From assembly GCA_965247125.1 (NCBI GenBank), contig CBDFGO010000003.1, forward strand, positions 6,058 through 70,057: a stretch of 64,000 bases of DNA. The letters run 5' to 3'. A program made the position numbers and the translations under genes. Source of the stretch: Rhodothermales bacterium (lineage in GTDB: Bacteria; Bacteroidota; Rhodothermia; Rhodothermales; UBA10348). Positions 1 to 28,968 of the stretch are shown one piece after another (the first letter of the stretch is position 1; each line of letters starts with the position of its first letter). The notes under the pieces were generated by a model. It was not told where the DNA came from, ran no database searches, and saw only the letters and a list, made by a program, of their open reading frames with translations.

Positions 1-199
1 AAACGCGCGAGGATTCGGAGGTGGTAGAGGCCGACTAATCCCAGAGCTTTCCTCCACGTGATCGGCGCTTTTCCAGAGGCGCGGGTCACAGACAGATCCT
101 GCCTGGCGGCGCTGGCCGCGGGTGGCTTCACCACCGCCGGGCGGGACTCTGTCACCTTTTACGAGAAACTGGCCCTTTGAACCGATAAATCAGACCCCA

Positions 200-3100
200 A
201 TGAAGATTGCCATCCTAGCAGACCTGCACGTCAGAGGCTCAGATCTCGACGTATTCGAAGCACAGATGAGCGCGGCCATTCGCGCGATGGTAGAGCGGGA
301 CGTATTCACGGCATTTGTCGCCGGCGATACGTTCGATAGAGATAACATTCACGACCGATCTGCATCAACAGGGCGCATCACGTGGACCGTCGCCCGTCTC
401 CTGGCTAACTCTGGAATTCGTTGGTACCTGGTTGATGGAAATCACGACAAGCCCAACGACACGACGCGTTCGGCCAACTGGTCACTGGCCTCCCTCGACA
501 ATGTTACCGTCATTTCAGAACCATCGCGCATTCCGATGGGAGAAGGAATCGAATTCTACTGTGTGCCGTGGTACTACGAGGCGCAGATGGCTCCCCGTAT
601 TGAGGAAGCACTTCGCCTCCAGGACGAGCATGTCAGGGCAGAGACGAGAGTACTGATCGGCCACGGCCAGGTGCGCGGTGCCCACATGTCGGGGACTCAG
701 TACTGCGAGCACGGCCACTTTGCGATCGGCTCAAATGAACTCCTGGCATACGGCTTCGATCATATCGCGCTCGGCGATTTTCACCGGCGCCAGCCCTTCT
801 ACGTGGGGGCGCTGCGCCAACTGAATCACGGAGAAGAAGGCAACCCCCAGGGCTTCGAGATCTACGACACTGATTCGAACGAGGTCGAGTGGGTAGAGCT
901 CCGCGAGGCCCCTCAGTATCGGACACTCATCTGGACGCAGGGCGAGCCAAAACCCGTGACAAATCCGGCAGAGGTGACCCGAATTCGGACGGAAGGATGG
1001 ACGCCGACAGCGGCGGAAATCGGTGATATTGGGCCGCGCGACAAGATTGATCCGGTAATTGAGCGCCAGGCGATTCAGCGCCGAATCGACGACATCCCCG
1101 AGGGCATACTCTCGGACATGCACGCCGTCCTGGATCTCTATCTGAAGGCCAACGATATCGAGATCACGAAGGAGCTGCACGACGAGCTGGCGAGGCTTCT
1201 CGAGATGGGCGCGCTCTCCGCGTCAGGTCTTCAGCGATCGGCCCGGGGCGGCACGCTCGATATCATTGAGACCCACATCAAGGAGATCGGACCGCACCTT
1301 GATCTGTCAATTGACTGGTCAGAATTCGGAAGCCTGGTTGCGATTCTCGCCGCGAACGGGACGGGCAAGACTATTCTCGCAGAAGCTGATTTTGCGTGCC
1401 TCCACGGGGAATTCCCATCCTACCCGGGGCCACTCTACGACGTGATGACCCAGAACGGTAGCGGCACCTCCGAGCTCAGAACGGTCTTTAAGTACGGGGA
1501 GGATCGCTATGTGGCCAGCCGACGGCTTCACCAGACGGCGAAGACGAAATCTCACGAGGCCACACTCGAAATCATGGAGGCAGGCGCCCCTCGGATCGTG
1601 GCCGGCCCCAAGGTGGGAGATTTCGATAAGGCGATCGAGCACCTTCTGGGAAGTAAGCAGAGCGCGCTAGTGTCGTGGTTCTCGGGCCAGGGCGGTACCG
1701 GCGACATCTGTCTTTTGCCCGTTGTCGATCGGCGCCGTGTTTTCGGCGAGCTCATGGGTTCGGACGGACTCGAGGAGCTGTCACAGCGCTCAAAACAGGA
1801 GGCCGCAAAGGAGACCGCCGAACTCGGCGAAATCGAGCGCAGCATCGAGGCCGAAGCGGGCCTGCCGGAGGAGATAAGGGCGAAGGACGAAGAACTCATC
1901 CGGGTCGATGGACAGCTGCTCGAATTGGGTAAAGAGCAGACTGGCGCGGACACAGTTCTTAAGAATCTCACCGACACCTTGGTGGGGCGCAAAGAAATCC
2001 TCGCCCGCGGAGAGGAGGCCCACAAAGGAGCTCCCGATATCCCGCGGTTGAGAACCGACTACCAACTAGCAAGGCTTGACTCGGACGCTGCGGCCCAGGC
2101 GGCAGCCAGTCTCCCGTCGTTCGAGGCGAAAGCGTCGCGGCTCGAGTACGCGGATGGTCAACTCTCAGCCCACCAGAAATATTCATCATGGAAAACGATT
2201 GACGACAACCTAACGACCTCGATAGCCACGCAGGAAAACACAATCGCGCTCTATGATATCACCGATGCGGATCGGGGAAACGCGGCGGCTCAACCAACGG
2301 TCAAGGTGCAGCTGGACCAACTCAACACAGAGGCGGGCCAGCTTGTTGAGAAAAACGCAGAACTCAACGCCGCTATCGCCTCGGCAGCCGATCAGGTAAA
2401 GGCCCTCGAGGAGTCACGCCAGCTCTCCCCGCTGTTCGGCACCGACTGCGCGCCGTGCCCAATCCTGGCGTCTCTGAAGGCTCAGGTTGGATCAACTGAA
2501 GAGTGGAAAGCCCGTGGTCGTGATGCGGAGCTCGGCCTGGAATCTAATAAGAAAGGCCTGGCGCGGCTGGGGCCGCTCATCGAAGCCGAGGAAAACAGAC
2601 TGGAACTGTGCAAAGCGGCAAGCCTGAAGATCGCCAGCGCTGCAGTTCATTTGGCCCCTGCCCGAGAAGCGCTGAAGGGGTACGAAGACCAACTGCAGTC
2701 GCATCGAAAACTTCCGCCTACGCCCTCTGACCTGACAGAGCTGCAGGCGGCGAACCTGACGACCACGGCCAAGGTCCTGCGGCCGGAAGTTGAACAGCTT
2801 CCCGTTCTTCGCGATCGCGCCTCAAAAAAAGAAGAGCTCGAGGCTAGAACGACCGAGAGGCACAGGGTTCTGGCCGCTGCTGAACAGCAGATAAAATTGC
2901 TCCCAGACCTGTATGTCCTTCGCAGCGCCATCACCGCGGCAGCGCTCGAGGCCACCGAGGCTGTGCTGCGCAAGGATTCGATCGACGGGCAGGTTGTGGA
3001 GGCGAAAGAGCACCGAGCTCGCACTGCCGAGGCTCTCGAGGCGCTGAATGTCCGCCGCAAAACGGTGTGGGAAAACACCCAGCGCACCTCCGCAAAGAAA

Positions 3101-3655
3101 GCCCGTGTGGCGCTGCTGCGCGTGCTCCAGGAGGCCTTCGGCAAGAAGGGCGCCCAAGCGCTTCTGCTCGATGCGTCGATGGCAGATCTCGAACAGGACG
3201 CCCACGAGATCGTCAGTGAGGCGACCGACGGAAGGTTTGCAATCGAGATCAAGACGCAGACCCAGAATGCCGACGGATCCATGAAAGAAGACCTGGCGAT
3301 CATGGCCATCGACCAGCACGGACGCCGCGACGTCTCTCGGTTCTCAGGAGGAGAGAAGCGACTATTTCAGATCGCTCTGCGCATCGCGATGACCAGGTGG
3401 ATTGCCCGCCTCACCGGGCGCAGCGCCGGCGCCATTAGAATCGATGAGACCTTCGATGCGCTCGACACGGAGCGCGCGATCGTGGTCATCGAAATGTTCG
3501 AGCGGCTCAAGGATCGGTTCTCGCGTGTCATTCTCGTGACGCACAACCCCTCGTTCGCCTCCCGCATTCCTGATCGCATTGAGCTCGGAAAACAGACGCC
3601 GGCGCCGGCACAGGCCGAGCCCGAAGAAATGGAGCTCGAGGAGGCGCCGCTATGA
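200..3655 (+). CDS. Single-chain SbcD/Mre11-like metallophosphoesterase fused to SbcC/Rad50-like SMC ATPase with a long coiled coil and CxxC zinc hook. The ORF track starts at 122; MKIAILADLH at 200 is the likely start.
   Basis: N-terminus has calcineurin-like phosphoesterase motifs (ILADLH, GDTFD, GNHD, GHGQ, GDFH). Walker A is AANGTGKT. A roughly 500-aa coiled-coil region contains CAPCP, a CxxC hook. C-terminus has the ABC signature FSGGEKR, Walker B/D-loop IRIDETFDALD and H-loop ILVTHNP. The TGA stop overlaps the next ATG (ATGA). Confidence 0.8.
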   Translation: MKIAILADLHVRGSDLDVFEAQMSAAIRAMVERDVFTAFVAGDTFDRDNIHDRSASTGRITWTVARLLANSGIRWYLVDGNHDKPNDTTRSANWSLASLDNVTVISEPSRIPMGEGIEFYCVPWYYEAQMAPRIEEALRLQDEHVRAETRVLIGHGQVRGAHMSGTQYCEHGHFAIGSNELLAYGFDHIALGDFHRRQPFYVGALRQLNHGEEGNPQGFEIYDTDSNEVEWVELREAPQYRTLIWTQGEPKPVTNPAEVTRIRTEGWTPTAAEIGDIGPRDKIDPVIERQAIQRRIDDIPEGILSDMHAVLDLYLKANDIEITKELHDELARLLEMGALSASGLQRSARGGTLDIIETHIKEIGPHLDLSIDWSEFGSLVAILAANGTGKTILAEADFACLHGEFPSYPGPLYDVMTQNGSGTSELRTVFKYGEDRYVASRRLHQTAKTKSHEATLEIMEAGAPRIVAGPKVGDFDKAIEHLLGSKQSALVSWFSGQGGTGDICLLPVVDRRRVFGELMGSDGLEELSQRSKQEAAKETAELGEIERSIEAEAGLPEEIRAKDEELIRVDGQLLELGKEQTGADTVLKNLTDTLVGRKEILARGEEAHKGAPDIPRLRTDYQLARLDSDAAAQAAASLPSFEAKASRLEYADGQLSAHQKYSSWKTIDDNLTTSIATQENTIALYDITDADRGNAAAQPTVKVQLDQLNTEAGQLVEKNAELNAAIASAADQVKALEESRQLSPLFGTDCAPCPILASLKAQVGSTEEWKARGRDAELGLESNKKGLARLGPLIEAEENRLELCKAASLKIASAAVHLAPAREALKGYEDQLQSHRKLPPTPSDLTELQAANLTTTAKVLRPEVEQLPVLRDRASKKEELEARTTERHRVLAAAEQQIKLLPDLYVLRSAITAAALEATEAVLRKDSIDGQVVEAKEHRARTAEALEALNVRRKTVWENTQRTSAKKARVALLRVLQEAFGKKGAQALLLDASMADLEQDAHEIVSEATDGRFAIEIKTQTQNADGSMKEDLAIMAIDQHGRRDVSRFSGGEKRLFQIALRIAMTRWIARLTGRSAGAIRIDETFDALDTERAIVVIEMFERLKDRFSRVILVTHNPSFASRIPDRIELGKQTPAPAQAEPEEMELEEAPL

Positions 3656-4062
3656 ACGAAGTCCTTCAAATCGACCGGCTCTCGAGGAGCGAACTCGCCA
3701 GTATCGTCGAGAGCGCTGTCGAGCGGGCCGTGAGCCCTGTGCAGCGCGAGCTCGAGCTCTGGCGCCAGCACGCCATCCGGATGAAGACCGTCATTTCGGC
3801 GTCCGACGCAGCCGTCCTATCGGCTGTCAAGCGAGAGACCGTGATCGATGAGTGGATAAAGCACTGGGGCCTGCCAGCCTTCAAGCGCGGCCAGCAGTGG
3901 AATATGTACTTCGTCGACCTCATGGCCTGGCGCATCGGCGAGGTCGGGTTTTCCATACGAAGCCCACACATCACAATTGTTGAACCCCAACACCTGGCAC
4001 GAAAGCATGCAGGACATCGAAGCATATCCACTGCGCTGGCCACTCGGATATCCGCGAACTAA
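3652..4062 (+). CDS. Excisionase/MerR-like HTH (HTH_17-like) DNA-binding protein.
   Basis: Segment VISASDAAVLSAVKRETVIDEWIKHWGLPAFKRGQQWNMYFVDLMAW fits the excisionase-family HTH pattern. Translationally coupled to the upstream gene. The 3' end overlaps the next ORF, so the true C-terminus is uncertain. Confidence 0.55.
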   Translation: MNEVLQIDRLSRSELASIVESAVERAVSPVQRELELWRQHAIRMKTVISASDAAVLSAVKRETVIDEWIKHWGLPAFKRGQQWNMYFVDLMAWRIGEVGFSIRSPHITIVEPQHLARKHAGHRSISTALATRISAN

Positions 4063-4648
4063 GTACCCGAAGCTGTCTCCGTTCAAGAAGACCCGCTACG
4101 ACTACGATCTCGGCAAGACCTTGCGGCGCACGCTCGAAGCCGAGCGCACATTCCTCAGAACGGAATTGCGTCTGCTTAAGGCGAAAAACGTAGTGGTCTC
4201 GACCGATATCCCGCTTCGGCAGGACGGAGAGTTCTACTCGCAGCGGCGCAATCCTGATGACCCGGCCATTGCTGTCTATTTCGTCCTGGGCGACCAGCAG
4301 AAGGTGATTGCGTGTGATGCCTGGAACAACATACAGGATAATATTCGCGCCATTGCCAGAACGATCAAGAATCTGCGCGGCCTCGATCGCTACAAATGTA
4401 CCGACATCATGAAGGGCGTTTTTTCCGGCCTCGAGGAGCGCATGTTGCCGGCAGCCGGCGAAGGCTCGGGCGCCGCCTGGTGGGACGTACTCGAAATCGA
4501 TATGGGGGCTTCAGCCGATGAGATCGATCGGGCTTTCAAGCGCCTGGCCAAGCTACACCACCCCGATGTGCCTGGAGGCAGCGCCGACACCTATCACACC
4601 ATCTCTGAGGCCCGCCTGCAGGGACTCTCATCACGAGGCCAATCATGA
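3977..4648 (+). CDS. J-domain (DnaJ-like, HPD motif) protein with an N-terminal domain of unknown function. An alternative start is at 4007.
   Basis: C-terminal WWDVLEIDMGASADEIDRAFKRLAKLHHPDVPGG matches J-domain helices II-III with the HPD tripeptide. The N-terminal roughly 150 aa are unrecognised. The stop overlaps the next start (ATGA at 4645). Confidence 0.7.
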   Translation: MLNPNTWHESMQDIEAYPLRWPLGYPRTKYPKLSPFKKTRYDYDLGKTLRRTLEAERTFLRTELRLLKAKNVVVSTDIPLRQDGEFYSQRRNPDDPAIAVYFVLGDQQKVIACDAWNNIQDNIRAIARTIKNLRGLDRYKCTDIMKGVFSGLEERMLPAAGEGSGAAWWDVLEIDMGASADEIDRAFKRLAKLHHPDVPGGSADTYHTISEARLQGLSSRGQS

Positions 4649-5457
4649 AGAAGAATGATTCAAACGCCAAGCTATTCCTGGACGTCGAAACGACAGGCAC
4701 CCAGCGCGACAAAGACCAGGTGGTACAGCTGGCCATGATCCTCGAAAAGGGAGAGGGGCGCCTGTCCTACAAGTGGCTCATGAAGCCCACAATAGAGATA
4801 TCTCCCGGGGCCCTGGCTGTCCACAAGATCACCGCGGCCATGCTCGAAAACGAGAAGCCGTTCTCGCACTTCGCGGAGTTCATCTATCAACAGGTCCTCG
4901 CCGCCGACGTCATCGTCGGCTACAATGTTGATTTTGACATTGCTATCGTAGCGGCTGAATTGAAGCGCTGCGGCCTGGCCGACCCCTTCGTCGGAAAGAC
5001 GAAGATCGACCCGTATAAGCTGTGGCTCGCTCGGCGTCCCAGAAAACTCGAGGACGCATATCGCGAATTCGTCGGATCCGAAATGACGGATCAGCACGAT
5101 GCTCTTTCGGATGTCACCGCGACCGAGGCCGTCCTCTACGAGATGATCCGGGAGTTTGGGCTCGAGGACCTCAGTACAGACGAGCTCTGCGACGCCTGCT
5201 TCCCTGACATGAAGCACTGGTGCGGGCCGAGCGAGCACTTCGTGTGGGAGCCGTGGGGCCTCAGCTTCGGGTTCGGAAAGTCCAACGGGAGGCCACTGTT
5301 GGGTTACCACGACATCAGATACATGAATTGGATGCTGGGCGGCACCTTCCCCCAGCACGTGAAAGACATCGTTTCGGCTCGCCTGCATTGGAAGGGCGAT
5401 CGAGATGGATTCCACGCCGCTATGGAAGAGGTCTACGGCGGCACGCGCCAAGCCTAG
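4645..5457 (+). CDS. DEDDh 3'-5' exonuclease (DnaQ/PolIII-epsilon-like) with a C-terminal DUF3820-like domain.
   Basis: Exo I is FLDVETTG, Exo II is YNVDFD, Exo III is HDALSDV. The C-terminal FGFGKSNGRPLLGYHDIRYMNWMLGG resembles the DUF3820 (FGKYKG...W) domain. The 3' end abuts the IS3-C remnant. Confidence 0.8.
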   Translation: MKKNDSNAKLFLDVETTGTQRDKDQVVQLAMILEKGEGRLSYKWLMKPTIEISPGALAVHKITAAMLENEKPFSHFAEFIYQQVLAADVIVGYNVDFDIAIVAAELKRCGLADPFVGKTKIDPYKLWLARRPRKLEDAYREFVGSEMTDQHDALSDVTATEAVLYEMIREFGLEDLSTDELCDACFPDMKHWCGPSEHFVWEPWGLSFGFGKSNGRPLLGYHDIRYMNWMLGGTFPQHVKDIVSARLHWKGDRDGFHAAMEEVYGGTRQA

Positions 5458-5459
5458 GT

Positions 5460-5879
5460 CGCGATCAGCCAATGTAGACCGATATCGCTGAGTTGAACGT
5501 GCTTTAGAAAGTACCAGGCAAGCCCGCCGCTCACTCACATTCAGACTCTTCTGAACATGACGAACGGCCAATCTGCGACGCGACGGGCTTAATACTTTCC
5601 CGTTATTGCCTCTTTCAAGATGGCATTATCAAGAACCTGATCTGCCAGCAGCTTTTTCAGCCGGGTATTCTCCTTCTCGAGTTCCTTGAGACGACGAATG
5701 TCCTGCTTGTGCATCCCGCCGTACTTCTTCTTCCATCGCTAGTAAGTCTGTTCAGTTACTTCAATGGATTTGACAGCTTCAGCTATCGATTGGCCCTGAG
5801 CACTCAGCGATTCAACCGTGCGAAGTTTCTCGATGATCTGGCCTGCGGTGTGTTTACTTCCTTTCATGTTGATGCAGTT
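5460..5879 (-). pseudogene. IS3-family element remnant (IS3-C). Its orfA carries an in-frame TAG and only the first ~40 codons of orfB survive. It is truncated by the neighbouring gene junction and by the IS3-A1 insertion.
   Basis: Minus-strand translation gives MKGSKHTAGQIIEKLRTVESL...TEQTY(TAG)RWKKKYGGM...LRRLKELEKENTRLKKLLADQ, a typical IS3/IS911 OrfA. It is followed by an orfB start, LNVSERRACLVLSKARSTQRY, which then becomes antisense to the exonuclease gene. Confidence 0.6.
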
Positions 5880-6268: not shown

Positions 6269-7096
6269 ATGATCGACCCAATCCACGACCTCTCCATCAA
6301 ACGGCAGTGCAATCTGCTGGAGCTGAATCGCTCAACGGCCTACTACAAGCCGGTGGGCGAGAGCAAAGAGAACCTGGCCGTGATGAAAAAACTGGATGAG
6401 CTCTACCTTGAGCGGCCCACGCGAGGATCGCGCACCATGAAGGATGCGCTCGAGGACAGAGGTATTTTTGTGGGCCGCCATCGAATCCGGCGATTAATGC
6501 GTCTGATGGGCCTTATTGCCATTTATCCTAAGAAACGGACCTCGATTCCGGGAAAGGGTCACAAGATTTATCCGTATCTCTTGCGTAAGCTCAACGTGAC
6601 GCGGCCCCGGCAGGTTTACGCAAGCGACATCACATTCATTCCGATGAAAAGGGGATTCGTTTACCTGGTCGCCGTCATCGACTGGTACAGCCGAAAAGTA
6701 CTCTCACGCCGGATCTCCAATACGATGGACACCGACTTCTGTGTGGAAGCGCTCGAAGAAGCAATCGCCGTGTATGGAGCGCCAGAGATCTTCAATACGG
6801 ATCAGGGCAGCCAGTTCACACCCGTGGCCTTTACTGATGTTCTGAAGAATCATGACATCAAAATCTCTATGGATGGCAAAGGACGCTGGATGGACAACGT
6901 GTTCGTTGAACGTCTGTGGCGTAGCCTGAAATATGAAGAGGTGTACCTTAAAGCCTATGACAGTGTGGCTGAAGCCCGCAAATCCATTGCTGTATACTTC
7001 GACTACTTCAATAACGAAAGGCGACACAGCTCACATGGAAGAAAGACCCCTGATCACGTATTTTTTAATCACCAGCCGCTTCAAGAAGCAGCATAA
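6269..7096 (+). CDS. IS3-family transposase OrfB (DDE integrase core).
   Basis: rve-type DDE motifs (DITF..., SMDGKGRWMDNVFVERLWRSLKYEEVY). It is in the -1 frame relative to orfA. Confidence 0.85.
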   Translation: MIDPIHDLSIKRQCNLLELNRSTAYYKPVGESKENLAVMKKLDELYLERPTRGSRTMKDALEDRGIFVGRHRIRRLMRLMGLIAIYPKKRTSIPGKGHKIYPYLLRKLNVTRPRQVYASDITFIPMKRGFVYLVAVIDWYSRKVLSRRISNTMDTDFCVEALEEAIAVYGAPEIFNTDQGSQFTPVAFTDVLKNHDIKISMDGKGRWMDNVFVERLWRSLKYEEVYLKAYDSVAEARKSIAVYFDYFNNERRHSSHGRKTPDHVFFNHQPLQEAA

Positions 7097-7194: not shown

Positions 7195-8046
7195 CTACTC
7201 ACGAAGAACTACGAACAGAAAGGTCGAAAAGAGTCCGAAGTCCCCTTCAATCGCACCGTGATAGATTCCAGGAACTAGTGCCTTGACGTTGATGTCAACT
7301 CCACATTGCTTAGGTTCACATTTCATCCTGCTGATTGCCACACGCTTTCCGGCTGAGTTGTACACATACGTTGTCGCATTCTGTTGATTGTCGTTTCCAA
7401 TGCGAATTGAAACCGTTGAACCGGCTGGATTGGGAAATACATTGACTACAGGATTCGCAACTGAAGGGAGCCGGGGATTCTGCAGACCCACCACTATTTG
7501 TCCACCAATTATGACTCTATACAACTCGTACTGGGCAAAACGGAAGTTAATTTTTGACACGCCGATGTCAGGAGAAAACGTATATGATCGTTCATCATCT
7601 CGACCGCTTACGTCGTCGAAATACATCCGAAGAGAGCCATCGAAGGTTCCTGCGAATACTGGTGAGGTCACATCTCGATCGATTGTGACATCGACTTGGG
7701 ATGTGGGATTTTCGGGATTCGGGAATGAATAGGTGTCTCCTTCTGCCAAGCTGAAATCCAGCATCAGAAAGTCTTGATCGTCATACCGAGCCCATACATT
7801 TCCAGCTCCATCCAGCCTTACCAATTGGATGCCAAAGTAAATGATGTGCTCGTTGACACGATGGTAGAGGGTATCATTTACGATCTGTGTAGTGTCGATG
7901 GTGAAATAGACTGCATCATCAGTGTCGGGATTCGTGGCATCGCTATGCGAAAAGAGGTAGGTCCACTGGCTGTCTATTTCCAACGGCAGAAACTTTACCT
8001 GGGATTGCTGGGCTAAGGCCAAACTGGTCAACCAGAAATACGACAT
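7195..8046 (-). CDS. Secreted protein with a T9SS (Por) C-terminal sorting domain. The ORF track extends to 8103; the signal-peptide Met at about 8046 is the likely start.
   Basis: Signal peptide MSYFWLTSLALAQQ. C-terminal VFPNPAGSTVSIRIG...VYNSAGKRVA...ALVPGIYHG...FVVLRE matches the T9SS CTD pattern. Confidence 0.6.
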   Translation of the reverse strand: MSYFWLTSLALAQQSQVKFLPLEIDSQWTYLFSHSDATNPDTDDAVYFTIDTTQIVNDTLYHRVNEHIIYFGIQLVRLDGAGNVWARYDDQDFLMLDFSLAEGDTYSFPNPENPTSQVDVTIDRDVTSPVFAGTFDGSLRMYFDDVSGRDDERSYTFSPDIGVSKINFRFAQYELYRVIIGGQIVVGLQNPRLPSVANPVVNVFPNPAGSTVSIRIGNDNQQNATTYVYNSAGKRVAISRMKCEPKQCGVDINVKALVPGIYHGAIEGDFGLFSTFLFVVLRE

Positions 8047-8209
8047 AGTCAGAAATGCAGATTTGATGATTCTCACGAGCACAATTTGGCCACTAGAAGG
8101 CATAAAGTTAGACCTGAAGATTTGAGTATATATGGGTATTTCTACCTATTCTGATAGGAAAATATACTTATTCTGAACGTACAAAGAGATGGTCCTATAA
8201 AACTGGACA

Positions 8210-9593
8210 GAGCTATGCCCAAAAGTTGTGTATGGAAGGTTTAGGCAGCGTGTCGTTCTGATGTAATTCCGTCGGTGAATTTGATTCCTTTTTTTACAAG
8301 TTGCAATAGGTGCGGTGCATTCAGTTTCCTCCACTTCTTCTGAGCCTCTTTACATAGACGGAAGGCCATTGCAAGAGCTGTTTCTCGGCTCAGACATCCC
8401 CTCGTTTTGGCGGTCCTGAGGCGCACGGTCGCGAACGTAGATTCGATCGGATTTGTGCTCCGAAGATGGATCCAGTGTTCTGCCGGAAAGTCATAAAAAG
8501 CGAGCAGTTCTTCTCGGTCTTTCACCAGAATCTCTGCTGCTTTCGGATACTTTTGCTGGTAGGCTTTGATGAAAAACAGAAGGGCGCTCTCTGCCTGCTT
8601 TTTTGTTTCTGCTGTATAGATCTGCGTGAGGTGACCTTTTGCCTTCTTCTGAACGGACTTGGGCAGGCGGTTGAGCACATTTGCTGTCTTGTGCACCCAA
8701 CAGCGTGCGGCTCGCGTCTCGGGATAAACTTCTGCGAGAGCACTCCAGAATCCCATGGCTCCATCGGCAACAGCCAGCTTCGGTCCTTGATCCAGCCCGC
8801 GGTGCCTCAGCTCCAGGAGCAACTCTCGCCACGACTGCTTGCTCTCGCGAAAGCCGTCCTCGAGTGCTATAAGCTCCTTCCTTCCATCGGCCGTAGCGCC
8901 GATCACGACCAGCAGACACAGTTTCTGTTTATCCATGCGTACGTTTACGTGAATACCGTCGGCCCAGAAATAGACGTAGTGCTTCTCCTTCAGGCTCCGC
9001 TTTTGCCAGTCTTCGTGCTCCCTTGTCCAAAGCGTCTTCAGGCGCGCAATCGTCGAGGAGGTCAGCCCTGGGGCATCAGGACCAACAAGGGCCGAGAGCG
9101 CTGCCTCAAAGCCGCCCGTTGAAACTCCCTTCAGGTACAACCATGGAATGAGAGCCTCAAGCGAGCGGCTCTTGCGGAGGTAGGCTGGTAGTATCGAACT
9201 GCGGAAACCGATTCTATCCTCACCCCGACCCGTACGGTCGCGTATGCGGGGCATCTTTACAGCGACCTCCCCGATACCAGTCAAAATCTTCCTCTCTGGC
9301 AGATATCCATTGCGAACGATGCGGTGGCGATTCTCTTCGTCGCGCAGGAACTGGTAGCGCTGGCAGAAAGCTTCAACCTCGGCCTCAACGGCTGTGGCCA
9401 GCATCTTTGCGGCCCCTGTTCGCAATACTTCTGTCAACACATCCTCTGTGCTATTGTAGTTCTCGTTCTCGTGTGCGTTATTCGTCTTCATGGGCGGTGT
9501 ATCCTCCAATCTTCGGATTGACAATGACGTAATCATCATCAGGATACGCCGCCTATACCTTTTTCACCCGTACACAACTTTCGGGGTTAACTC
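8210..9593 (-). mobile_element. IS256-family IS, copy 1, inserted into the terminus of IS3-A2.
   Basis: 1384 bp. Imperfect 26-bp IRs: GAGCTATGCCCAAAAGTTGTGTATGG versus the reverse complement GAGTTAACCCCGAAAGTTGTGTACGG. A 9-bp target duplication AACTGGACA flanks both sides. Confidence 0.9.
8241..9539 (-). CDS. IS256-family (mutator-type) transposase, 432 aa.
   Basis: Mutator-type core: LLVVIGATADGRKELIALEDGF...WRELLLELRHRGL...LAVADGAMGFWSALAEVYPETRAARCWVHKTANVLNRLPK. Confidence 0.9.
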   Translation of the reverse strand: MMITSLSIRRLEDTPPMKTNNAHENENYNSTEDVLTEVLRTGAAKMLATAVEAEVEAFCQRYQFLRDEENRHRIVRNGYLPERKILTGIGEVAVKMPRIRDRTGRGEDRIGFRSSILPAYLRKSRSLEALIPWLYLKGVSTGGFEAALSALVGPDAPGLTSSTIARLKTLWTREHEDWQKRSLKEKHYVYFWADGIHVNVRMDKQKLCLLVVIGATADGRKELIALEDGFRESKQSWRELLLELRHRGLDQGPKLAVADGAMGFWSALAEVYPETRAARCWVHKTANVLNRLPKSVQKKAKGHLTQIYTAETKKQAESALLFFIKAYQQKYPKAAEILVKDREELLAFYDFPAEHWIHLRSTNPIESTFATVRLRTAKTRGCLSRETALAMAFRLCKEAQKKWRKLNAPHLLQLVKKGIKFTDGITSERHAA

Positions 9594-10848
9594 AACTGGA
9601 CAGGGTCTTAGGTGGAATCTTGCGGATTGATTATGCTGCTTCTTGAAGCGGCTGGTGATTAAAAAATACGTGATCAGGGGTCTTTCTTCCATGTGAGCTG
9701 TGTCGCCTTTCGTTATTGAAGTAGTCGAAGTATACAGCAATGGATTTGCGGGCTTCAGCCACACTGTCATAGGCTTTAAGGTACACCTCTTCATATTTCA
9801 GGCTACGCCACAGACGTTCAACGAACACGTTGTCCATCCAGCGTCCTTTGCCATCCATAGAGATTTTGATGTCATGATTCTTCAGCACATCAGTAAAGGC
9901 CACGGATGTGAACTGGCTGCCCTGATCCGTATTGAAGATCTCTGGCGCTCCATACACGGCGATTGCTTCTTCGAGCGCTTCCACACAGAAGTCGGTGTCC
10001 ATCGTATTGGAGATCCGGCGTGAGAGTACTTTTCGGCTGTACCAGTCGATGACGGCGACCAGGTAAACGAATCCCCTTTTCATCGGAATGAATGTGATGT
10101 CGCTTGCGTAAACCTGCCGGGGCCGCGTCACGTTGAGCTTACGCAAGAGATACGGATAAATCTTGTGACCCTTTCCCGGAATCGAGGTCCGTTTCTTAGG
10201 ATAAATGGCAATAAGGCCCATCAGACGCATTAATCGCCGGATTCGATGGCGGCCCACAAAAATACCTCTGTCCTCGAGCGCATCCTTCATGGTGCGCGAT
10301 CCTCGCGTGGGCCGCTCAAGGTAGAGCTCATCCAGTTTTTTCATCACGGCCAGGTTCTCTTTGCTCTCGCCCACCGGCTTGTAGTAGGCCGTTGAGCGAT
10401 TCAGCTCCAGCAGATTGCACTGCCGTTTGATGGAGAGGTCGTGGATTGGGTCGATCATTTGGCGGCGCTCACCTACTGGGTGCGACCGAGCGCTTTGGAT
10501 AAAAAATCCTTCTCCATCGAAAGCTCGCCAATCTTGGCGCGAAGCTCCTTGATCTGGCCCTCCTCGTTGTGCTTTCTGGAATGCCCTTTGTCAAAGACCT
10601 CTTCAGCGTCCTGAATCAATTTCTTCTTCCAGGTCTGAATCTGATTCGGGTGCACCTGGAATTGGTCTGCCAACTCGGCCATCGTGCGGTCTCCCTTAAC
10701 CGCCGCCAGTGCTACTTTTGCTTTGAAGGCATTGCTGTGATTTCTTCTTTTGCGACTCATCGTTTGTAGCCTTTCTTGAGGGTGATGAGATCGCAAGATT
10801 CCACCTATAATCAGAGCCAGGCTGTCCAGTCAAACGGGACCATCTCTC
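9594..10848 (-). mobile_element. IS3-family copy A2. Its other terminal 25 bp lie at 8185-8209, separated from the body by the IS256 copy-1 insertion.
   Basis: orfB 9631-10458 and orfA 10473-10796 are nearly identical to copy A1 (P/S and Y/H differences). The element terminus AGAGATGGTCCTATAAAACTGGACAG appears on both sides of the IS256 with the duplicated AACTGGACA. Confidence 0.85.
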
Positions 10849-10882: not shown

Positions 10883-12161
10883 TGACCTTACTCCCATAAA
10901 GTGGACAGGTAGTTAAGCGTACTTTGCATCAATACAGAGGTACGCAATGGGAACGAGAAGGAAGTATTCCAAAGAGTTCAAACTGGAAGCCGTCCAGTTA
11001 GCTGAGATCAGTGGCAACACGAGTCAGACGGCCAGGGAATTGGGCATCAATGCCGGATTGATCAGGCGTTGGAAGCAGCGATTCGAAGAGGATGGTAAAC
11101 GAGCGTTTCCCGGGCACGGTACTCCTCGTGATGAGGAACTCGTCAAACTCCGCAAAGAGCTCAGACGGGTCAAAGAGGAGAACATCGTTCTAAAAAAAGC
11201 CGCCGGTATTTTCAGCAGAGACCTTCGATGAGATACCGGGTTGTGGACGAAGTAAGAGGGTTGGTGCCAGTCGTGCGAGCGTGTACGTTTATGCGGCTAT
11301 CGCCGAGCGGGTATTACGCATGGAGGGGACGCGCACTGAGTATTCGAGAGCATGAAAACCGTGGACTGTTGATTCAGATTCAAACGATTCACCGGGCCAG
11401 CAGGGGTACGTATGGCGCTCCGCGAGTGCATGCCGAGCTTCGCGCTCAAGGCGTCGCGGTAGGGCGTCGTCGCGTGGCTCGTCTGATGCAGCAGAACGGG
11501 ATTAAGGCGCTCAGGCGCCGCAAGAGGCGTGTACAGGCTCCATCCGCTCCTCTTGAGGCTATCAAGGCCAACGTGCTGGATCGTCAATTCATGCCTGACA
11601 GGCCAGGCGCCGTGTGGACAGCCGACATTACATATTTACCGACGGCTGAAGGATGGCTTCGGCGATTTTCTATCGCCGATGGCTGTCGTGCTGGATTTGT
11701 ACTCACGCCGAGTCGTTGGATGGTCAGTACGTCCCTCTCTCGCAAAAGAACTTGCCACCAACGCGCTTCAGAACGCGATTGAGCATCAGCGGCCACGGGC
11801 AGGGCTAATTCATCATTCGGATCGAGGTAGCCAGTACACGAGCTATGAGTACCAACGAATGCTGCGGCGCGAAGGGATCACCATCTCGATGAGCAGGAGC
11901 GGATCCTGTCACGACAATGCTCCAACCGAGAGCTTCTTCGGGACACTCAAAACGGAGATGCACCTTCGAGGAGATCCATTCAATTCACATGCTGAAGCAA
12001 AACGAGGACTCTTCGAATATATCGAGGTTTTCTACAATCGCCAACGTCGACACTCAACCCTTGGATACCAGACGCCGATGGAATTTGAACAACACTATAT
12101 TAACCAACAAACCACCGCAGTGTAGGCTTAATCAACTGTCCAGAAAACCGGAGTAAGGTCA
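10883..12161 (+). mobile_element. Second IS3-family element (IS3-B). Its orfB is frameshifted, so the element is probably inactive.
   Basis: TG...CA termini with IRs TGACCTTACTCC...GGACAG..TTAAG at both ends. orfA spans 10947-11231 (MGTRRKYSKEFKLEAVQL...). orfB is split into two frames (11228-11782 and 11529-12125), with the break near 11650 where VLDLYSRRVVGWS is in the other frame. Confidence 0.8.
11228..12125 (+). pseudogene. IS3-B transposase OrfB, frameshifted.
   Basis: DDE integrase sequence is split across two overlapping frames. Confidence 0.75.
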
Positions 12162-12633
12162 AGACGGTGAGATCGTCGTAGTGTAGTACGGTACTTCTAT
12201 TTGCTAGCAGAGTGTAGTCTTTAAGCTTTGCAAGCACGGGCGTGTAGGCATCCACTGATCCGTGCTGACCTCGATCACGGAACTCCTGGATCCGATTCTG
12301 AAAATCAACGAGGAAGTCGTGTGTTTCAGTATCGGCAGTGCCCTGAACGGCGCGCTTGATCGCAGCGGCCGAAAAATCCTTCCCTTCGACTACGGCATCA
12401 AGAATTGCATCCTCTGCCTTCATCACGATGGACTTCAGGTATGGATTTAGTCTGGCGTGGTGCCGATTCGATTTTCTGATTTCCTTCTGCAGCGGATTCC
12501 AATCCTTTTCCTTGATTCGAACGGGAAGAGCAATCGTCGAGCGCTTACTTCTATGATGGATAACGAGATAAAGAGGAACAGTGCCGTCACGCGTTTTCTT
12601 CCCTCTCCAGGGCACAATACTTATCTTGGCCAT
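12162..12633 (-). pseudogene. Tyrosine recombinase/integrase (Bacteroidota-type N-terminal arm-binding domain), C-terminally truncated by the IS3-B insertion.
   Basis: MAKISIVPWRGKKTRDGTVPLYLVIHHRSKRSTIALPVRIKEKDWNP is homologous to the second integrase at 41797. The ORF tail runs into the IS3-B right end at 12161. Confidence 0.7.
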
Positions 12634-14465: not shown

Positions 14466-14580
14466 AAGCGCATGTTGCGGACTCGCACGACTGGCTGAGC
14501 CGGTTGGAAACGATTACTTTCTGAAAGGCGTGCGAATGCTCGCCGCAAGTCCGCCAGCCGTTATATACTCTCTTGAAAAT
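14466..14580. repeat. About 115-bp imperfect direct repeat, copy A. Copy B is at 16572-16686.
   Basis: GCATGTTGCGG(A/G)CTCGCACGACTGGCTGAGCCGGTTGGAAAC...GAATGCTCGCCGCAA(G/A)TCCGCCAGCCGTTAT, about 90% identical. The two copies flank the IS110 element plus higBA. Confidence 0.8.
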
Positions 14581-15860
14581 CAAGCCTTCACAGCGGGTAT
14601 CTGGTAGAATTTCTCTCCTTTAAAAGGAGTTTCGTTCTTGAGCATCCCCAAAATGGAGTGCAGCAGTTTTCTCATGACTGCAACGATGGCCACAAGTGGT
14701 TTTTTGCCCTGGGCGATCAGGTGTTCGTAGAAGGCCATGATGTTGGGCTCCCATTTGATGGCTACGAGTGCGGGCATGTAGAGTGCTCGCCTGAGCTTGA
14801 CGTTTCCCATCTTTGAAATACGCTCACGCTTTGCGACCGAGTCGCCAGAAGTGTATTTGCGAGGATCAAGTCCTGCATGTGCTACCCACTGACGTACGGA
14901 CATGCCATCGGGCAGAATCAAGATTTCTGGCAGAATCATGACAGCGCTTTTCTGTGCAATTCCTCGAATGCTGGTGAGTAGCAGAAATGCGGAATTCATC
15001 TGGTCGTGCCCTTCAATTAAACGAATTGCCTGTTCTAGCATGGCGGCGAGTCTGCGTTCCAGATGTCGAATGTTCACCTCGATGTCATTGATTACGATGG
15101 CTGATGTGGTCACAGTTGCACAGGCTTGGTGCAACCGTGCTTGCTCGCGGGTTCTCTCTGTGGTGAGGGCATGCATGCGGCGCGACATGCCTCTGAGCTC
15201 TAGAATCTCGTCTTTCGGAGGTGTCCAGAGCACAAATACCATGCGGCTTGCAAAATCGGCCAGCATATCGGCATCGACGCGGTCTGTCTTTGATCGGCGC
15301 ATTTGTGCTCGTGCAAACTGACGCGTGGCAGATGGATTGGCTACCATCAGTTCAACAGCGGAACACGAATCAAGGGTCAGCGCGAGGTCGAGACTGTAAT
15401 TGCCCGTTGCCTCGATCACCACACGCACGAACGCTCCAGGCTCCATAATCCACTTGATGAGCTGGCCATGACCTGCTGCGGTATTTAAAAACTGTTTCTG
15501 GCGAGCAGAACGATTTTCTTGGTGGATACATACATCGATCGTCGCCTTGCTTATATCGCAGCCAACAAAGACATTAGTGCACATGAGTCACTCCGGTTTG
15601 TAACGTGAAACGGATAATGATTCCGGTTTCCCATCCCGACCCAGGCGGCGGACATTGTATATGCAGGCTCACAGTATCACGCGAAATGATCCGGGCCTCG
15701 TAAACTCCTCAGCCTTCTGCTTGGGTCAGGCGGGGGGCTGATATAACGGACAGGTTCACTGACAAACAGGACCTAATGCAGCTACAGCCTTCCCCAGAAA
15801 CCTCAACATAACGAGAGGCGGGAAACCGACTGTTTTCTAGATACAATACGGTCTTTGTAA
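14577..15860 (-). mobile_element. IS110-family element. Boundaries are approximate; the stop codon abuts repeat A and a ~300-bp noncoding end lies 5' of the transposase.
   Basis: Transposase 14580-15584 (334 aa) has a DEDD-type N-terminus VGCDISKATIDVC and an IS110/IS116/IS902-type C-terminal domain. No terminal IRs are expected for this family. Confidence 0.65.
14580..15584 (-). CDS. IS110-family (DEDD) transposase.
   Basis: MCTNVFVGCDISKATIDVCIHQ...; C-terminal ...KKPLVAIVAVMRKLLHSILGMLKNETPF. Confidence 0.75.
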   Translation of the reverse strand: MCTNVFVGCDISKATIDVCIHQENRSARQKQFLNTAAGHGQLIKWIMEPGAFVRVVIEATGNYSLDLALTLDSCSAVELMVANPSATRQFARAQMRRSKTDRVDADMLADFASRMVFVLWTPPKDEILELRGMSRRMHALTTERTREQARLHQACATVTTSAIVINDIEVNIRHLERRLAAMLEQAIRLIEGHDQMNSAFLLLTSIRGIAQKSAVMILPEILILPDGMSVRQWVAHAGLDPRKYTSGDSVAKRERISKMGNVKLRRALYMPALVAIKWEPNIMAFYEHLIAQGKKPLVAIVAVMRKLLHSILGMLKNETPFKGEKFYQIPAVKA

Positions 15861-18695: not shown

Positions 18696-19157
18696 ATGCA
18701 CGAGCGCACACCTGAGCAAATCAGGGAGGCAAGGGAAACCTTAAAAAAGGAGTATCCCGAATTGTCTGATGAAGACATTGAAATAGTCGATCAATTTCTC
18801 CACAACTGGGCATCCATTATATACAGCATTGTCAAACGTCGGGGACCAGGTGCGAAGTATTTTCTTAATGGTTGGGAGGATCCTCAGCACATCATCACAG
18901 ATACCGAGTGGACTAAAATATCTCTCTTGCTCAGCAGCACGGAGGAAGTAGCCAAGTCAACAGGTCGTCCCAAAGCAGATTGCCGCAATGTCCTGGAGGG
19001 AATACTCTGGTATCTGAATACAGATAACTCACGTTGGGTAGACATGCCAGAACATTATCCACCACACAAGACATGTTATCGCTATTACAGTGAGTGGAAG
19101 AAAAGCGGTGTTCTCAGCAACATCCTCGAACTTCTTGATTCTGATACACGGCTATAG
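18696..19157 (+). CDS. IS5-family transposase N-terminal domain (DUF4096) protein. It is an orphan with no DDE domain downstream.
   Basis: ITDTEWTKISLLL...STGRPKADCRNVLEGILWYLNTDNSRWVDMPEHYPPHKTCYRYYSEWKKSGVL matches the DUF4096 pattern. Confidence 0.65.
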   Translation: MHERTPEQIREARETLKKEYPELSDEDIEIVDQFLHNWASIIYSIVKRRGPGAKYFLNGWEDPQHIITDTEWTKISLLLSSTEEVAKSTGRPKADCRNVLEGILWYLNTDNSRWVDMPEHYPPHKTCYRYYSEWKKSGVLSNILELLDSDTRL

Positions 19158-28244: not shown

Positions 28245-28968
28245 GTTCGTTCCTGCTACAGTACCAGTACTGCTGACTCTTAGAGCCAACACCGAAGTTC
28301 ACAGTTCACTGGAAAAACTGTCCGATTTCAATGGCTGGCTATTCAGAAACGTCCAACGCGAAAATCCCCAGATTGCAGACGGAATCCTTCGCTCATTCGA
28401 GATTGAAACCGAACTCGGAAATCGGGAGTCCGTCTCGGCGGATCTTCTCTTGGAATACGCGCCAGGTTCGGTCTGGGGCTCGGATTTTACGTTTCGCCGC
28501 TACAGCTTTCGAGGCTCGTTCAAGCTAAAGACTTTTTACCGAAGGCGCAGTCGACCCAATTGGCTCCGCGTATCGGTTTTGGCCGGCAGGAGCAGCGGTG
28601 ACTTACCGGTTCAAAGGCAGTTTTCAATTACTGGATCGGCGGGCCCGTTCTCTGAATTTACGGGCTTCCGGTCGCTCGGAAAGACGCCTTTCTTGGCCGA
28701 TAAGGTTCTGGGAATATTCTGGACGCACGATTTTACCACGGCACTATTCGAAAAATTCGGGCTTTGGAGACTGGCCGACGGGGGCATGGGGATTCAACTA
28801 TTTGGAGGTCACGGATTTTCTTCCTCCGTCAACTTCGGCGAGTTCAGTAAAAATCATCACGAGTTCGGAGTTGGGCTGTCCTACCCGTTCGGTCTTCCAG
28901 TCAGGCTCGACTTCGCCACAACGAGCAGTGGGGGATTTTTCTTTCGATTAGGAAAATCGCTTCGTTGA
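28245..28968 (+). pseudogene. C-terminal beta-barrel fragment of an Omp85/BamA-family outer-membrane protein, N-terminally truncated by IS256 copy 4.
   Basis: ...GRSSGDLPVQRQFSITGSAGPFSEFTGFRSLG...FFFRLGKSLR is a typical Omp85 barrel C-terminus. The first ~35 residues of the listed ORF are IS-encoded. Confidence 0.5.

What the first reader, a model, noticed from the sequence alone, without database searches (positions are those of the whole stretch)
3977..4648. J-domain protein embedded in a nuclease operon
A DnaJ-type J domain (…KRLAKLHHPD…) sits at the C-terminus of a protein whose N-terminal roughly 150 residues are unrecognised. J-domain proteins in mobile or defence contexts usually recruit host DnaK to remodel a partner, such as replication initiators. 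Here the partner would be a nuclease complex, which is unusual.
Basis: partly seen in the sequence, partly recalled or inferred. Interest (0 to 1): 0.5.

Follow-up and report, generated by a model that had tools for sequence, protein, structure and literature searches.

The report
Phage J-domain protein, not nuclease-linked
The gene encodes a real J-domain co-chaperone from a very widespread but unstudied phage protein family, and its position between two nuclease genes is an accident of phage mosaicism, not a sign that it serves the nucleases.

Summary
The ORF 3977-4648 (+), whose real start is probably the ATG at 4007 (213 aa), ends in a J domain. It matches Pfam DnaJ above the gathering score, has HPD at residues 185-187, and its model superposes on solved J domains. 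The first ~146 residues match no Pfam, NCBIfam or PADLOC model.

The protein is not an orphan. It matches PHROG 9210 (unknown function) over its full length. Its N-domain defines a family of 4,255 50%-identity clusters. Most members are 190-210 aa, and about 80-90% carry HPD. They occur in phages and prophages of many bacterial phyla.

The nuclease-partner reading fails. In 182 family loci no SbcC/SbcD-like gene lies nearby, and no neighbouring gene is conserved. The closest relatives of this SbcD-SbcC fusion and DEDDh exonuclease keep the same nuclease pair in temperate-phage replication operons without any J gene.

The window's first 5.5 kb is a GC-rich phage fragment cut off by an IS3 remnant.

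My reading is a class-C phage J-protein. Its basic N-domain has an HPF/dsRBD-like fold and selects an unknown target. Its short J domain loads host DnaK onto that target. This is an ordinary member of a known but uncharacterised kind.

The parts
4007..4648 (+). Gene for the 213-aa phage J-domain protein (PHROG 9210 family). The maximal ORF starts at the TTG at 3977.
   Evidence: ORF. Identical to public protein P0001 from the ATG at 4007. Full-length PHROG 9210 match, E 8e-39. The family N-terminus aligns to this start.
4007..4444 (+). N-domain, residues 1-146, the part that defines the family. It has the conserved YPLxWPxGxPRT N-terminal segment, then strand-strand-helix-strand-strand-strand-helix-helix. 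It is basic and its function is unknown.
4445..4477 (+). Flexible linker, residues 147-157 (LPAAGEGSGAA).
   Evidence: This is the only low-confidence stretch of the model: block means are 66-70 and residues 152-154 fall below 50. Its length varies in the family alignment.
4478..4645 (+). Short J domain, residues 158-213: helix I, helix II, the HPD loop and helix III, with no helix IV. HPD is at nt 4559-4567.
   Evidence: Pfam DnaJ at 31 bits against a cut-off of 27.8, profile positions 2-49 of 63. Foldseek probability 1.00 to many solved J domains, rmsd 0.9-3 A over ~50 residues. HPD is 93-96% conserved in the family.
122..3655 (+). Single-chain SbcD (Mre11-type phosphoesterase) + SbcC (Rad50-type ATPase) fusion. 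The public model starts at nt 200 (1151 aa). It is a neighbour, not a partner.
   Evidence: Pfam Metallophos, AAA_23, SbcC_Walker_B and SMC_N. phrog_100 and phrog_77. P0157 is identical.
3652..4062 (+). 136-aa ORFan with a weak, sub-threshold HTH_17 resemblance. It overlaps gene 1 by 4 nt and the J gene by 56 nt.
   Evidence: HTH_17 E 0.0089, 16.7 bits against a cut-off of 27. No phage homologue by tblastn. Not similar to the ORFan in the same slot of L204.
4645..5457 (+). DEDDh (RNase_T / DnaQ-like) 3'-5' exonuclease, 270 aa. Its start overlaps the J gene's stop (ATGA).
   Evidence: Pfam RNase_T E 9.6e-16. phrog_192 E 3.9e-35. 42% identical to the exonuclease downstream of the related SbcDC fusion in L204.
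5582..5867 (-). IS3-family OrfA pseudogene with an in-frame TAG. It marks where the phage-derived block is cut off.
   Evidence: Translation. Pfam HTH_Tnp_1 E 2.2e-13. GC falls from 0.59-0.61 to about 0.50 beyond this point.

Best explanation
The gene encodes a class-C (type III) J-domain co-chaperone of phage origin, a somewhat divergent but intact member of the PHROG 9210 family. It lies in a 5.5-kb, GC-rich remnant of a temperate phage's early replication/recombination operon. That remnant sits in an IS-saturated chromosome, probably of a Bacteroidota-like host, and its right end was removed by an IS3 insertion.

Proposed mechanism:
- The conserved, basic N-domain of about 146 aa binds a specific target. 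The target is not identified. The domain's charge and fold suggest that it is nucleic acid or a nucleic-acid-bound factor.
- A flexible linker presents the short C-terminal J domain to host DnaK in its ATP state.
- The HPD loop triggers ATP hydrolysis, so DnaK clamps onto whatever the N-domain holds, or onto the N-domain's partner, and remodels, releases or sequesters it early in infection or induction.

Shown here: the domain identities, the size of the family, HPD conservation, the lack of any fixed gene partner, and the phage early-region context. Inferred: DnaK stimulation, the nature of the target, and the biological outcome.

The flanking SbcDC and DEDDh nucleases are ordinary phage recombination genes. 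They are not the client.
For: J domain:
- Pfam match above the gathering score.
- HPD in the sequence and 93-96% conserved in 129 relatives.
- Present in 127/155 representatives, 74/83 viral loci and 74/99 genome loci.
- The model superposes on solved J domains, including the DnaK-bound one.
- No G/F, zinc-finger or DnaJ C-terminal domain was found, hence class C.

Family:
- Full-length PHROG 9210 match.
- The N-domain profile finds 4,255 / 2,688 / 821 clusters at E <= 1e-3 / 1e-10 / 1e-30, most 190-210 aa.
- 396 confirmed stretches in IMG/VR from one peptide pattern.
- Members occur in isolated phages of Synechococcus, Microcystis, Erythrobacter, Caulobacter, Microbacterium and Haloarcula.
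- Public names are only 'J domain-containing protein', 'molecular chaperone' or 'hypothetical'.

Phage early-region context:
- Family members lie next to Bet, RecT, SSB, HNH and methylases in isolated phages.
- In metagenomic loci the neighbours are integrases, C5-methylases, RecT/ERF/YqaJ, RusA, ParB_N and DUF5131.

Not nuclease-linked.

Phage remnant:
- GC 0.59-0.61 against about 0.50 elsewhere.
- IS3 OrfA pseudogene at 5582-5867.
- The rest of the window is host and IS genes.
- Relatives of genes 1 and 4 follow an S24 repressor, Prim-Pol/DnaB_C and VRR_NUC in phage-sized contigs.

The two domains are independent modules joined by a low-confidence linker. The N-domain is basic, with median pI 9.6.
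Against: - No experiment on any family member was found.
- The J domain lacks helix IV throughout the family, so its ability to stimulate DnaK is assumed, not shown.
- About 10-25% of members, including phage R6L gp9 and Sansa gp74, have lost HPD. Some members are the N-domain alone or carry other C-terminal modules. The N-domain must therefore have a DnaK-independent activity.
- The many near-invariant polar residues in the N-domain look more like a ligand or catalytic pocket than a plain docking surface.
- The window's copy deviates at 5 of 35 highly conserved columns, which puts it in the top 5% most divergent. It also sits in a decaying prophage, so it may no longer be under selection.
Confidence: 0.65

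Rival explanations
1. The J protein is a dedicated co-chaperone of the neighbouring nuclease machinery and brings DnaK to assemble, activate or recycle the SbcDC complex and/or the DEDDh exonuclease.
For: The four genes are co-directional. Genes 1/2 and 3/4 have overlapping stop and start codons, and no promoter-like site was found in the block; terminator-like matches were at the level expected by chance. Some phage genomes carry both a family member and a related DEDDh exonuclease, for example Microbacterium and Caulobacter phages, but the two genes are not adjacent there.
Against: No credible SbcC/SbcD-like gene occurs near the family gene in 182 loci. Metallophos, SbcC and RNase_T are not among the 25 listed of 55 Pfam families matching the 150 nearest neighbours. 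The closest SbcDC+exonuclease modules lack the J gene entirely. The family is thousands of clusters strong, while fused SbcDC relatives number three.
Confidence: 0.05
2. Replication-initiation helper. Like host DnaJ acting on lambda P-DnaB or P1 RepA, or like the J domain of SV40 large T antigen, the protein delivers DnaK to the phage's own initiator, helicase or primase complex to activate it.
For: The gene lies in early replication/recombination regions, next to SSB and upstream of a DNA helicase in Sansa. Related nuclease modules sit beside Prim-Pol/DnaB_C. The DnaK/DnaJ requirement of lambda replication is established knowledge (Zylicz et al. 1989, cited in PMC8215388). The precedent of the T-antigen J domain is cited in PMC3486835.
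Against: No replication gene is a conserved neighbour. The commonest neighbours are integrases and methylases, and replication systems differ widely among carrier phages. A single conserved N-domain would have to recognise very different initiators.
Confidence: 0.12
3. Host-chaperone hijack or decoy. The protein acts mainly on the DnaK system itself. It could titrate DnaK away from sigma-32, as Rki of phage RB43 does, to raise chaperone levels. It could also compete with host DnaJ and so blunt DnaJ-dependent immune sensing.
For: Rki is the one characterised phage J protein and works this way (PMC3486835). DnaJ-dependent phage sensing by bNACHT25 is reported (Conte et al. 2025, as cited in PMC12619734). 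The family sits among accessory early genes between recombination functions and the integrase, where host-modulating genes are usual (the comparison with lambda's pL region is my own knowledge).
Against: A decoy would not need a large, strongly conserved N-domain with many invariant polar residues. Members that lost HPD keep the N-domain. There is no sequence relation to Rki: no RB43 or T4-like hit.
Confidence: 0.1
4. The N-domain is the real effector (an enzyme, an inhibitor of a host enzyme, or a nucleic-acid or ribosome binder). The short three-helix J domain is vestigial or only regulatory. In this decaying prophage the gene may be inert altogether.
For: HPD-less, J-less and alternative-tail variants exist. 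Near-invariant polar residues cluster in loops. The fold resembles HPF/RaiA and the T7 dGTPase inhibitor Gp1.2. Helix IV is absent. The window's copy is among the most divergent.
Confidence: 0.08

Closest known systems
PHROG 9210, the GenBank 'J domain-containing protein' / 'molecular chaperone' of phages (e.g. Synechococcus phage Ssp-JY39 XAI96743, Erythrobacter phage vB_EliS_R6L gp9, Caulobacter phage Sansa gp74)
   Same: Same two-domain architecture over the full length, 28-42% identity, and the same invariant N-domain residues.
   Different: The window's copy is more divergent than most, with 5 deviations at 35 highly conserved columns. It sits between SbcDC and a DEDDh exonuclease, a neighbourhood seen in none of the other family loci examined. 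R6L gp9 and Sansa gp74 have lost HPD, whereas this copy keeps it.
Rki (gp057w) of T4-like phage RB43, the only experimentally characterised phage J-domain protein (PMC3486835)
   Same: A phage-encoded class-C J protein: a J domain plus a unique domain, expected to act through host DnaK.
   Different: I recall Rki's J domain as N-terminal and complete (from memory, not checked here); here it is C-terminal and lacks helix IV. There is no detectable sequence relation outside the J domain, and no T4-like phage appears among the tblastn hits. Rki comes from a lytic T4-like myovirus, whereas this family is in temperate-type phages and prophages.
J domain of polyomavirus large T antigen, and host DnaJ acting on lambda P or P1 RepA
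   Same: Precedents for a virus directing Hsp70 to a defined viral or host complex through a J domain.
   Different: The non-J parts are unrelated. The T-antigen J domain is N-terminal and fused to the initiator helicase itself. No link to a replication initiator was found here.
HPF / RaiA (YfiA) ribosome hibernation factors, the dsRBD-like strand-helix-strand-strand-strand-helix sandwich
   Different: Only 4-16% identity, and no Pfam S30AE match. The N-domain adds a conserved N-terminal WPxGxPRT segment, two extra strands, a long conserved loop and a third helix. The similarity is at the level of a common small fold, not demonstrated homology.
T7 Gp1.2, inhibitor of host dGTPase
   Different: No sequence relation (hhalign probability 0.1). 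It is half the size and has no J domain.

Membership tests
J-domain proteins (Pfam PF00226), class C / type III | Sequence match to the J-domain profile above the curated threshold | tested here: met
   31.0 bits against a gathering score of 27.8, E 2.7e-7.
J-domain proteins (Pfam PF00226), class C / type III | His-Pro-Asp tripeptide in the loop between helices II and III | tested here: met
   H185-P186-D187, nt 4559-4567. 93-96% conserved in the family.
J-domain proteins (Pfam PF00226), class C / type III | Helix II / helix III hairpin fold superposable on solved J domains | tested here: met
   Foldseek probability 1.00 and rmsd 0.9-3 A to 4j7z, 6d6x, 4rwu, 5nro_B and others. The model's pLDDT is 94-98 in this region.
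J-domain proteins (Pfam PF00226), class C / type III | Complete four-helix J domain (helix IV present) | tested here: not met
   The Pfam match covers profile positions 2-49 of 63. The model has helices at 158-161, 170-184 and 193-209, and the protein ends at 213. The same holds across the family.
J-domain proteins (Pfam PF00226), class C / type III | No G/F region, zinc-finger or DnaJ C-terminal domain (separates class C from classes A and B) | tested here: met
   DnaJ is the only Pfam hit. NCBIfam DnaJ equivalogs match only the J-domain stretch and score far below their cut-offs.
J-domain proteins (Pfam PF00226), class C / type III | Stimulates the ATPase of the cognate Hsp70 (DnaK) | not testable with these tools
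   Needs biochemistry or genetic complementation.
PHROG 9210 / N-domain family defined here | Full-length match to the family profile | tested here: met
   E 8.1e-39, residues 11-214 of the 223-aa ORF against profile 2-197 of 204.
PHROG 9210 / N-domain family defined here | Invariant core residues (L9, W11, P12, G74, Y91, D104, N112, R124, R128) | tested here: met
   All are present in the window's protein. There are 5 deviations at other columns that are at least 85% conserved.
   No credible hits in 182 family loci. The nearest SbcDC+exonuclease modules lack it.
   Both structure-prediction jobs went to the monomer models, so no multimer run was possible.
Rki-type phage J protein (RB43 gp057w) | N-terminal J domain followed by the Rki-specific C-terminal domain | tested here: not met
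   The J domain is C-terminal here. No T4-like or RB43 record appears among the tblastn hits.
HPF/RaiA (Ribosomal_S30AE) ribosome-binding factors | Strand-helix-strand-strand-strand-helix fold | tested here: inconclusive
HPF/RaiA (Ribosomal_S30AE) ribosome-binding factors | Sequence-profile membership | tested here: not met
   No Pfam hit in the N-domain at E <= 0.1. The PDB sequence-profile search found nothing relevant.
Known anti-phage defence systems (PADLOC) | Match to a defence-system protein model | tested here: not met
   No PADLOC family matched the J protein.

The most novel reading that the evidence does not exclude
The HPF/RaiA-like, basic N-domain docks on the ribosome or on RNA. 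This very widespread family would then be a phage-encoded, ribosome- or RNA-tethered Hsp70 co-chaperone, a bacterial-virus counterpart of eukaryotic Zuotin. It would redirect host DnaK to translating or hibernating ribosomes early in infection or prophage induction.
Probability: 0.06. Interest if true: 0.8.

Novelty: new member of a known kind. Interest (0 to 1): 0.3.

Why it matters
For this window it matters little. The gene is one more copy of a catalogued phage J-protein, stranded in a decayed prophage, and the unusual link to nucleases disappears on comparison with related loci.

The family itself deserves attention. Thousands of temperate phages and prophages across at least eight bacterial phyla, plus a haloarchaeal virus, carry the same ~146-aa domain of unknown function. 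That domain has no close solved fold and is nearly always tethered to a DnaK-recruiting J domain. Only one phage J protein, Rki, has ever been studied, and it is unrelated.

Finding what the N-domain binds would show what these phages use the host Hsp70 for. Culturable models exist in Caulobacter, Synechococcus PCC 7002, Erythrobacter and Microbacterium phages.

Tried and rejected
1. Nuclease partnership. I tested it from both sides: family loci searched for SbcC/SbcD and DEDDh genes, and SbcDC relatives searched for the J gene. It was rejected.
2. A conserved operon partner of any kind. BLAST clustering of the +-6 genes in 83 loci gave a largest cluster of only 11 loci, a C5-methylase at scattered positions. 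Pfam scans of large and small neighbours showed no dominant family.
3. An HTH_17 link. It was suggested by the upstream ORFan and by fusion variant P0117. Only 1 other of 81 small neighbours has HTH_17, and the window's match is below threshold.
4. Homology of the N-domain to solved structures by sequence. The profile search of PDB found only a chance hit, Invasin at E 1.
5. Fold match in viral predicted structures (BFVD). Nothing reached E <= 1e-3.
6. Relation to T7 Gp1.2. hhalign probability 0.1.
8. Defence-system membership. No PADLOC hit.
9. Retrieving the source genome or upstream context. The look-up of encoding contigs, the listing of cluster members and a genome-contig scan with the exact protein gave no locus or organism name.
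10. The afdb50 fold library was unavailable.
11. Near or distant DNA similarity of the 5.6-kb block to sequenced phages: none.
Full report
**The observation**

The + strand carries an uninterrupted ORF from 3977 to 4648 (223 aa from a TTG). A public protein (P0001, 213 aa; NCBI and ENA) is identical from the ATG at 4007. Family alignments put the conserved N-terminus (M, 3-8 residues, then [AF]YPLxWP) at that ATG. I take 4007-4648 as the gene and number residues accordingly.

The C-terminal 56 residues form a J domain:
- Pfam DnaJ scores 31.0 bits against a gathering score of 27.8 (E 2.7e-7).
- HPD lies at residues 185-187 (nt 4559-4567).
- H, P and D are 93-96% conserved among 129 aligned relatives.
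- An AlphaFold2 model (mean pLDDT 90.2) superposes on many solved J domains with Foldseek probability 1.00. These include the DnaJ J domain bound to DnaK, 5nro_B.

The domain is short. It has helices I, II and III only, the Pfam match covers profile positions 2-49 of 63, and the protein ends 26 residues after HPD. The whole family shares this trait.

There is no G/F region, zinc finger or DnaJ C-terminal domain, so this is a class-C (type III) J protein. The first ~146 residues match nothing in Pfam, NCBIfam or PADLOC.

**The protein belongs to a large family**

The whole protein matches PHROG 9210 ('unknown function') end to end (E 8e-39). A profile of the N-domain alone, searched against 1.84 billion representative proteins, finds 4,255 clusters at E <= 1e-3, 2,688 at <= 1e-10 and 821 at <= 1e-30. 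Nearly all the best hits are 190-210 aa, which is the N-domain plus a tail of J-domain size.

HPD is present in:
- 127 of 155 representatives;
- 74 of 83 viral loci;
- 74 of 99 bacterial-genome loci.

A single peptide pattern (DPGVAVYF-like) recovered 396 confirmed copies in IMG/VR. Carriers there include Alpha-, Beta- and Gammaproteobacteria, Nostoc and other cyanobacteria, Bacteroidota, Planctomycetota, Acidobacteriota, Chloroflexota, Oscillospiraceae and one Thermoplasmata MAG.

Isolated phages with a copy infect Synechococcus, Microcystis, Erythrobacter, Caulobacter, Microbacterium and Haloarcula. Their annotations read 'molecular chaperone', 'DnaJ-like' or 'hypothetical protein'. Public databases call the family 'J domain-containing protein' at best. 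I found no paper on it. The only characterised phage J protein is Rki of RB43, which has a different architecture (PMC3486835). A 2025 paper still states that the role of phage DnaJ-like proteins 'is not well understood' (PMC12619734).

**The nuclease link**

Genes 1-4 are co-directional and tightly packed. The pairs 1/2 and 3/4 share ATGA overlaps, and 2/3 overlap by 56 nt. The block contains no promoter-like site, and terminator-like matches were no more frequent than in shuffled sequence. They are probably co-transcribed. Comparison with related loci shows that this adjacency is accidental.

Evidence from the J-family side:
- In 83 viral and 99 genomic loci, phmmer with the window's SbcD-SbcC fusion found nothing.
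- 52 SbcC-like queries gave only two marginal hits (E ~7e-4) to proteins of 341-417 aa.
- The window's exonuclease hit one family locus.
- BLAST clustering of the six genes on either side gave a largest neighbour cluster of 11 of 83 loci. That cluster is a C5 DNA methylase at scattered positions.
- Pfam scans of the 150 nearest large neighbours and 81 nearest small neighbours listed integrases, ParB_N, HNH, DUF5131, methylases, RecT, ERF, YqaJ, RusA, SNF2 and serine recombinases.
- Metallophos, SbcC and RNase_T were not among the 25 listed of 55 matching families. Each of them could therefore occur in at most one neighbour.

Evidence from the nuclease side:
- The closest relatives of the fused SbcDC protein (P0158 at 39% and P0159 at 33% identity) lie in temperate-phage early operons.
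- The gene order there is: S24 repressor, HTH, Prim-Pol/PriCT/DnaB_C primase-helicase, VRR_NUC, an unknown gene, SbcDC, an ORFan of 117-120 aa, RNase_T exonuclease.
- That exonuclease is 42% identical to the window's gene 4 (E 1e-62).
- The ORFan is unrelated to the window's gene 2.
- No J-family sequence is detectable in those loci, even at E <= 10.

The conserved unit is SbcDC, then a variable slot, then the DEDDh exonuclease. In this window the slot holds an ORFan with no phage homologue plus the J gene. This is ordinary phage mosaicism.

**The element in the window**

Positions 1-4000 have GC 0.59-0.61, against about 0.50 for the rest of the window. Directly after the exonuclease gene lies an IS3-family OrfA pseudogene with an in-frame stop (5582-5867, minus strand).

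The remaining 58 kb holds host genes and many IS copies:
- host genes include a T9SS-sorted protein, PKD/OmpA, ThiF-rhodanese and proteases;
- nine IS256-type ORFs;
- four IS3 OrfB copies;
- IS110 and an IS4/5 fragment;
- an Arm-DNA-bind_5 integrase fragment.

The J gene thus sits in a truncated remnant of a temperate phage's early operon, in an IS-saturated chromosome that is probably Bacteroidota-like. The upstream part lies outside the window and could not be retrieved. The window's copy deviates at 5 of 35 highly conserved family columns, among the most divergent 5%. It keeps every invariant residue and HPD.

**The N-domain**

Modelled alone, the N-domain gives pLDDT 89.9 and pTM 0.82. An extended conserved N-terminal segment (YPLxWPxGxPRT) packs onto a two-layer sandwich. 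The order is strand-strand-helix-strand-strand-strand-helix-helix, with a long conserved loop (STNxPLRxDGxP) between the third and fourth strands.

Structural comparisons:
- Foldseek on the full model independently picked RaiA/HPF for this part (probability 0.92, E 0.03).
- BFVD gave nothing significant.
- Sequence profiles found no PDB relative.
- hhalign to Gp1.2 was null.

The core strand-helix-strand-strand-strand-helix topology is therefore of the common HPF/dsRBD-like type, but homology is not shown. The domain is basic, with median pI 9.6 and net charge +5. It carries many near-invariant polar residues: R17, S65, R71, D73, D85, Y91, D104, N112, R124 and R128.

Variants exist with the N-domain alone (~146 aa), with an HTH_17 domain in place of the J domain (P0117, E 5e-13), or with a CP76-like tail (P0007). 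Phage R6L gp9 and Sansa gp74 have lost HPD. The N-domain is the core of the family, and the J domain is a usual but dispensable effector arm.

**Mechanism**

The reading I commit to, at about 0.65 confidence, has three parts:
- The N-domain recognises a specific target that is still unknown. Its charge and fold point to nucleic acid or a nucleic-acid-bound factor.
- The flexible linker (residues 147-157, the only low-confidence part of the model) lets the J domain reach DnaK-ATP.
- The HPD loop triggers hydrolysis, so DnaK locks onto the bound target and remodels or sequesters it early in infection or induction.

Shown here: the domain identities, HPD conservation, the modular architecture, the early-region context and the absence of a fixed partner gene. 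Inferred: DnaK stimulation by a three-helix J domain, the target, and the outcome.

The rivals are:
- a replication-initiation helper, on the lambda P / P1 RepA / T-antigen logic;
- a DnaK/DnaJ hijack or decoy, Rki-like or aimed against DnaJ-dependent sensing;
- an N-domain that works on its own with a vestigial J domain;

**Novelty and score**

The family is already catalogued (PHROG 9210, GenBank annotations), though nothing is known about its function. This gene is a new, rather divergent member of a known kind, and the feature that made it look special does not hold.

The residual interest lies in the family: a very widespread phage J-protein whose conserved N-domain has no characterised relative. 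The most novel reading I cannot exclude is a ribosome- or RNA-tethered phage co-chaperone, based only on the weak HPF-like fold match. I give it about 6%.

Noticed in passing
window 8241-9539(-), 16830-18128(-), 24046-25344(-), 26892-28190(-), 42718-44016(+), 44400-45698(+), 50461-51759(-), 52541-53839(+), 54462-55760(-): Nine copies of a 432-aa IS256-family (Transposase_mut) ORF lie within 64 kb. With the other IS types they make up roughly a quarter of the window, which is an unusually IS-saturated stretch of chromosome.
   Followed up: partly
window 6269-7096(+), 9631-10458(-), 19781-20608(-), 28141-28968(+); also 14580-15584(-) and 18696-19157(+): Four IS3-family OrfB (rve) copies; OrfA partners (107 aa) were seen for the first two and not checked for the others. 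There is also one IS110-family transposase and an IS4/5 (DUF4096) fragment.
   Followed up: partly
window 5582-5867 (-): An IS3-type OrfA (HTH_Tnp_1, E 2e-13) with an in-frame TAG and no OrfB behind it. It abuts the 3' end of the exonuclease gene and marks where the phage-derived block was truncated.
   Followed up: yes
window 1-5500 versus the rest: GC content steps from 0.59-0.61 in the phage block to about 0.50 in the rest of the window. This fits foreign origin of the block.
   Followed up: yes
window 122/200-3655 (+); loci L204 10001-13363, L205 4153-7524, L206 3296-7159: SbcD (Mre11-like phosphoesterase) and SbcC (Rad50-like ATPase) are fused into one polypeptide of about 1,150 aa. Only three fused relatives turned up. 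Two sit in temperate-phage early operons next to Prim-Pol/DnaB_C and VRR_NUC, followed by an ORFan and the same DEDDh exonuclease.
   Followed up: partly
window 12100-12633 (-): A 177-aa ORF consisting only of an Arm-DNA-bind_5 domain, the N-terminus of Bacteroidota-type tyrosine integrases. It is probably an integrase fragment left by IS activity. Its relation to the phage block is unknown.
   Followed up: no
window 7195-8103 (-): A protein with a T9SS C-terminal sorting domain (Por_Secre_tail), boxed in by IS copies. It suggests that the host belongs to Bacteroidota or a related FCB lineage.
   Followed up: no
proteins P0117, P0007 and the ~146-aa members (e.g. P0070, P0072, P0080, P0091): The family's N-domain also occurs fused to an HTH_17 DNA-binding domain, to a CP76/CII-like tail, or on its own. 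It therefore functions without a J domain in some phages.
   Followed up: partly
L002 8004-8612 (Erythrobacter phage R6L gp9); L003 7980-8600 (Caulobacter phage Sansa gp74): Both are annotated 'molecular chaperone', yet their alignment shows a deletion that removes the HPD motif. They are unlikely to stimulate DnaK.
   Followed up: partly
window 4007-4062: The J gene overlaps the preceding 136-aa ORFan by 56 nt in a different frame. This is long for a coupling overlap. The ORFan has only a sub-threshold HTH_17 resemblance and no phage homologue.
   Followed up: partly
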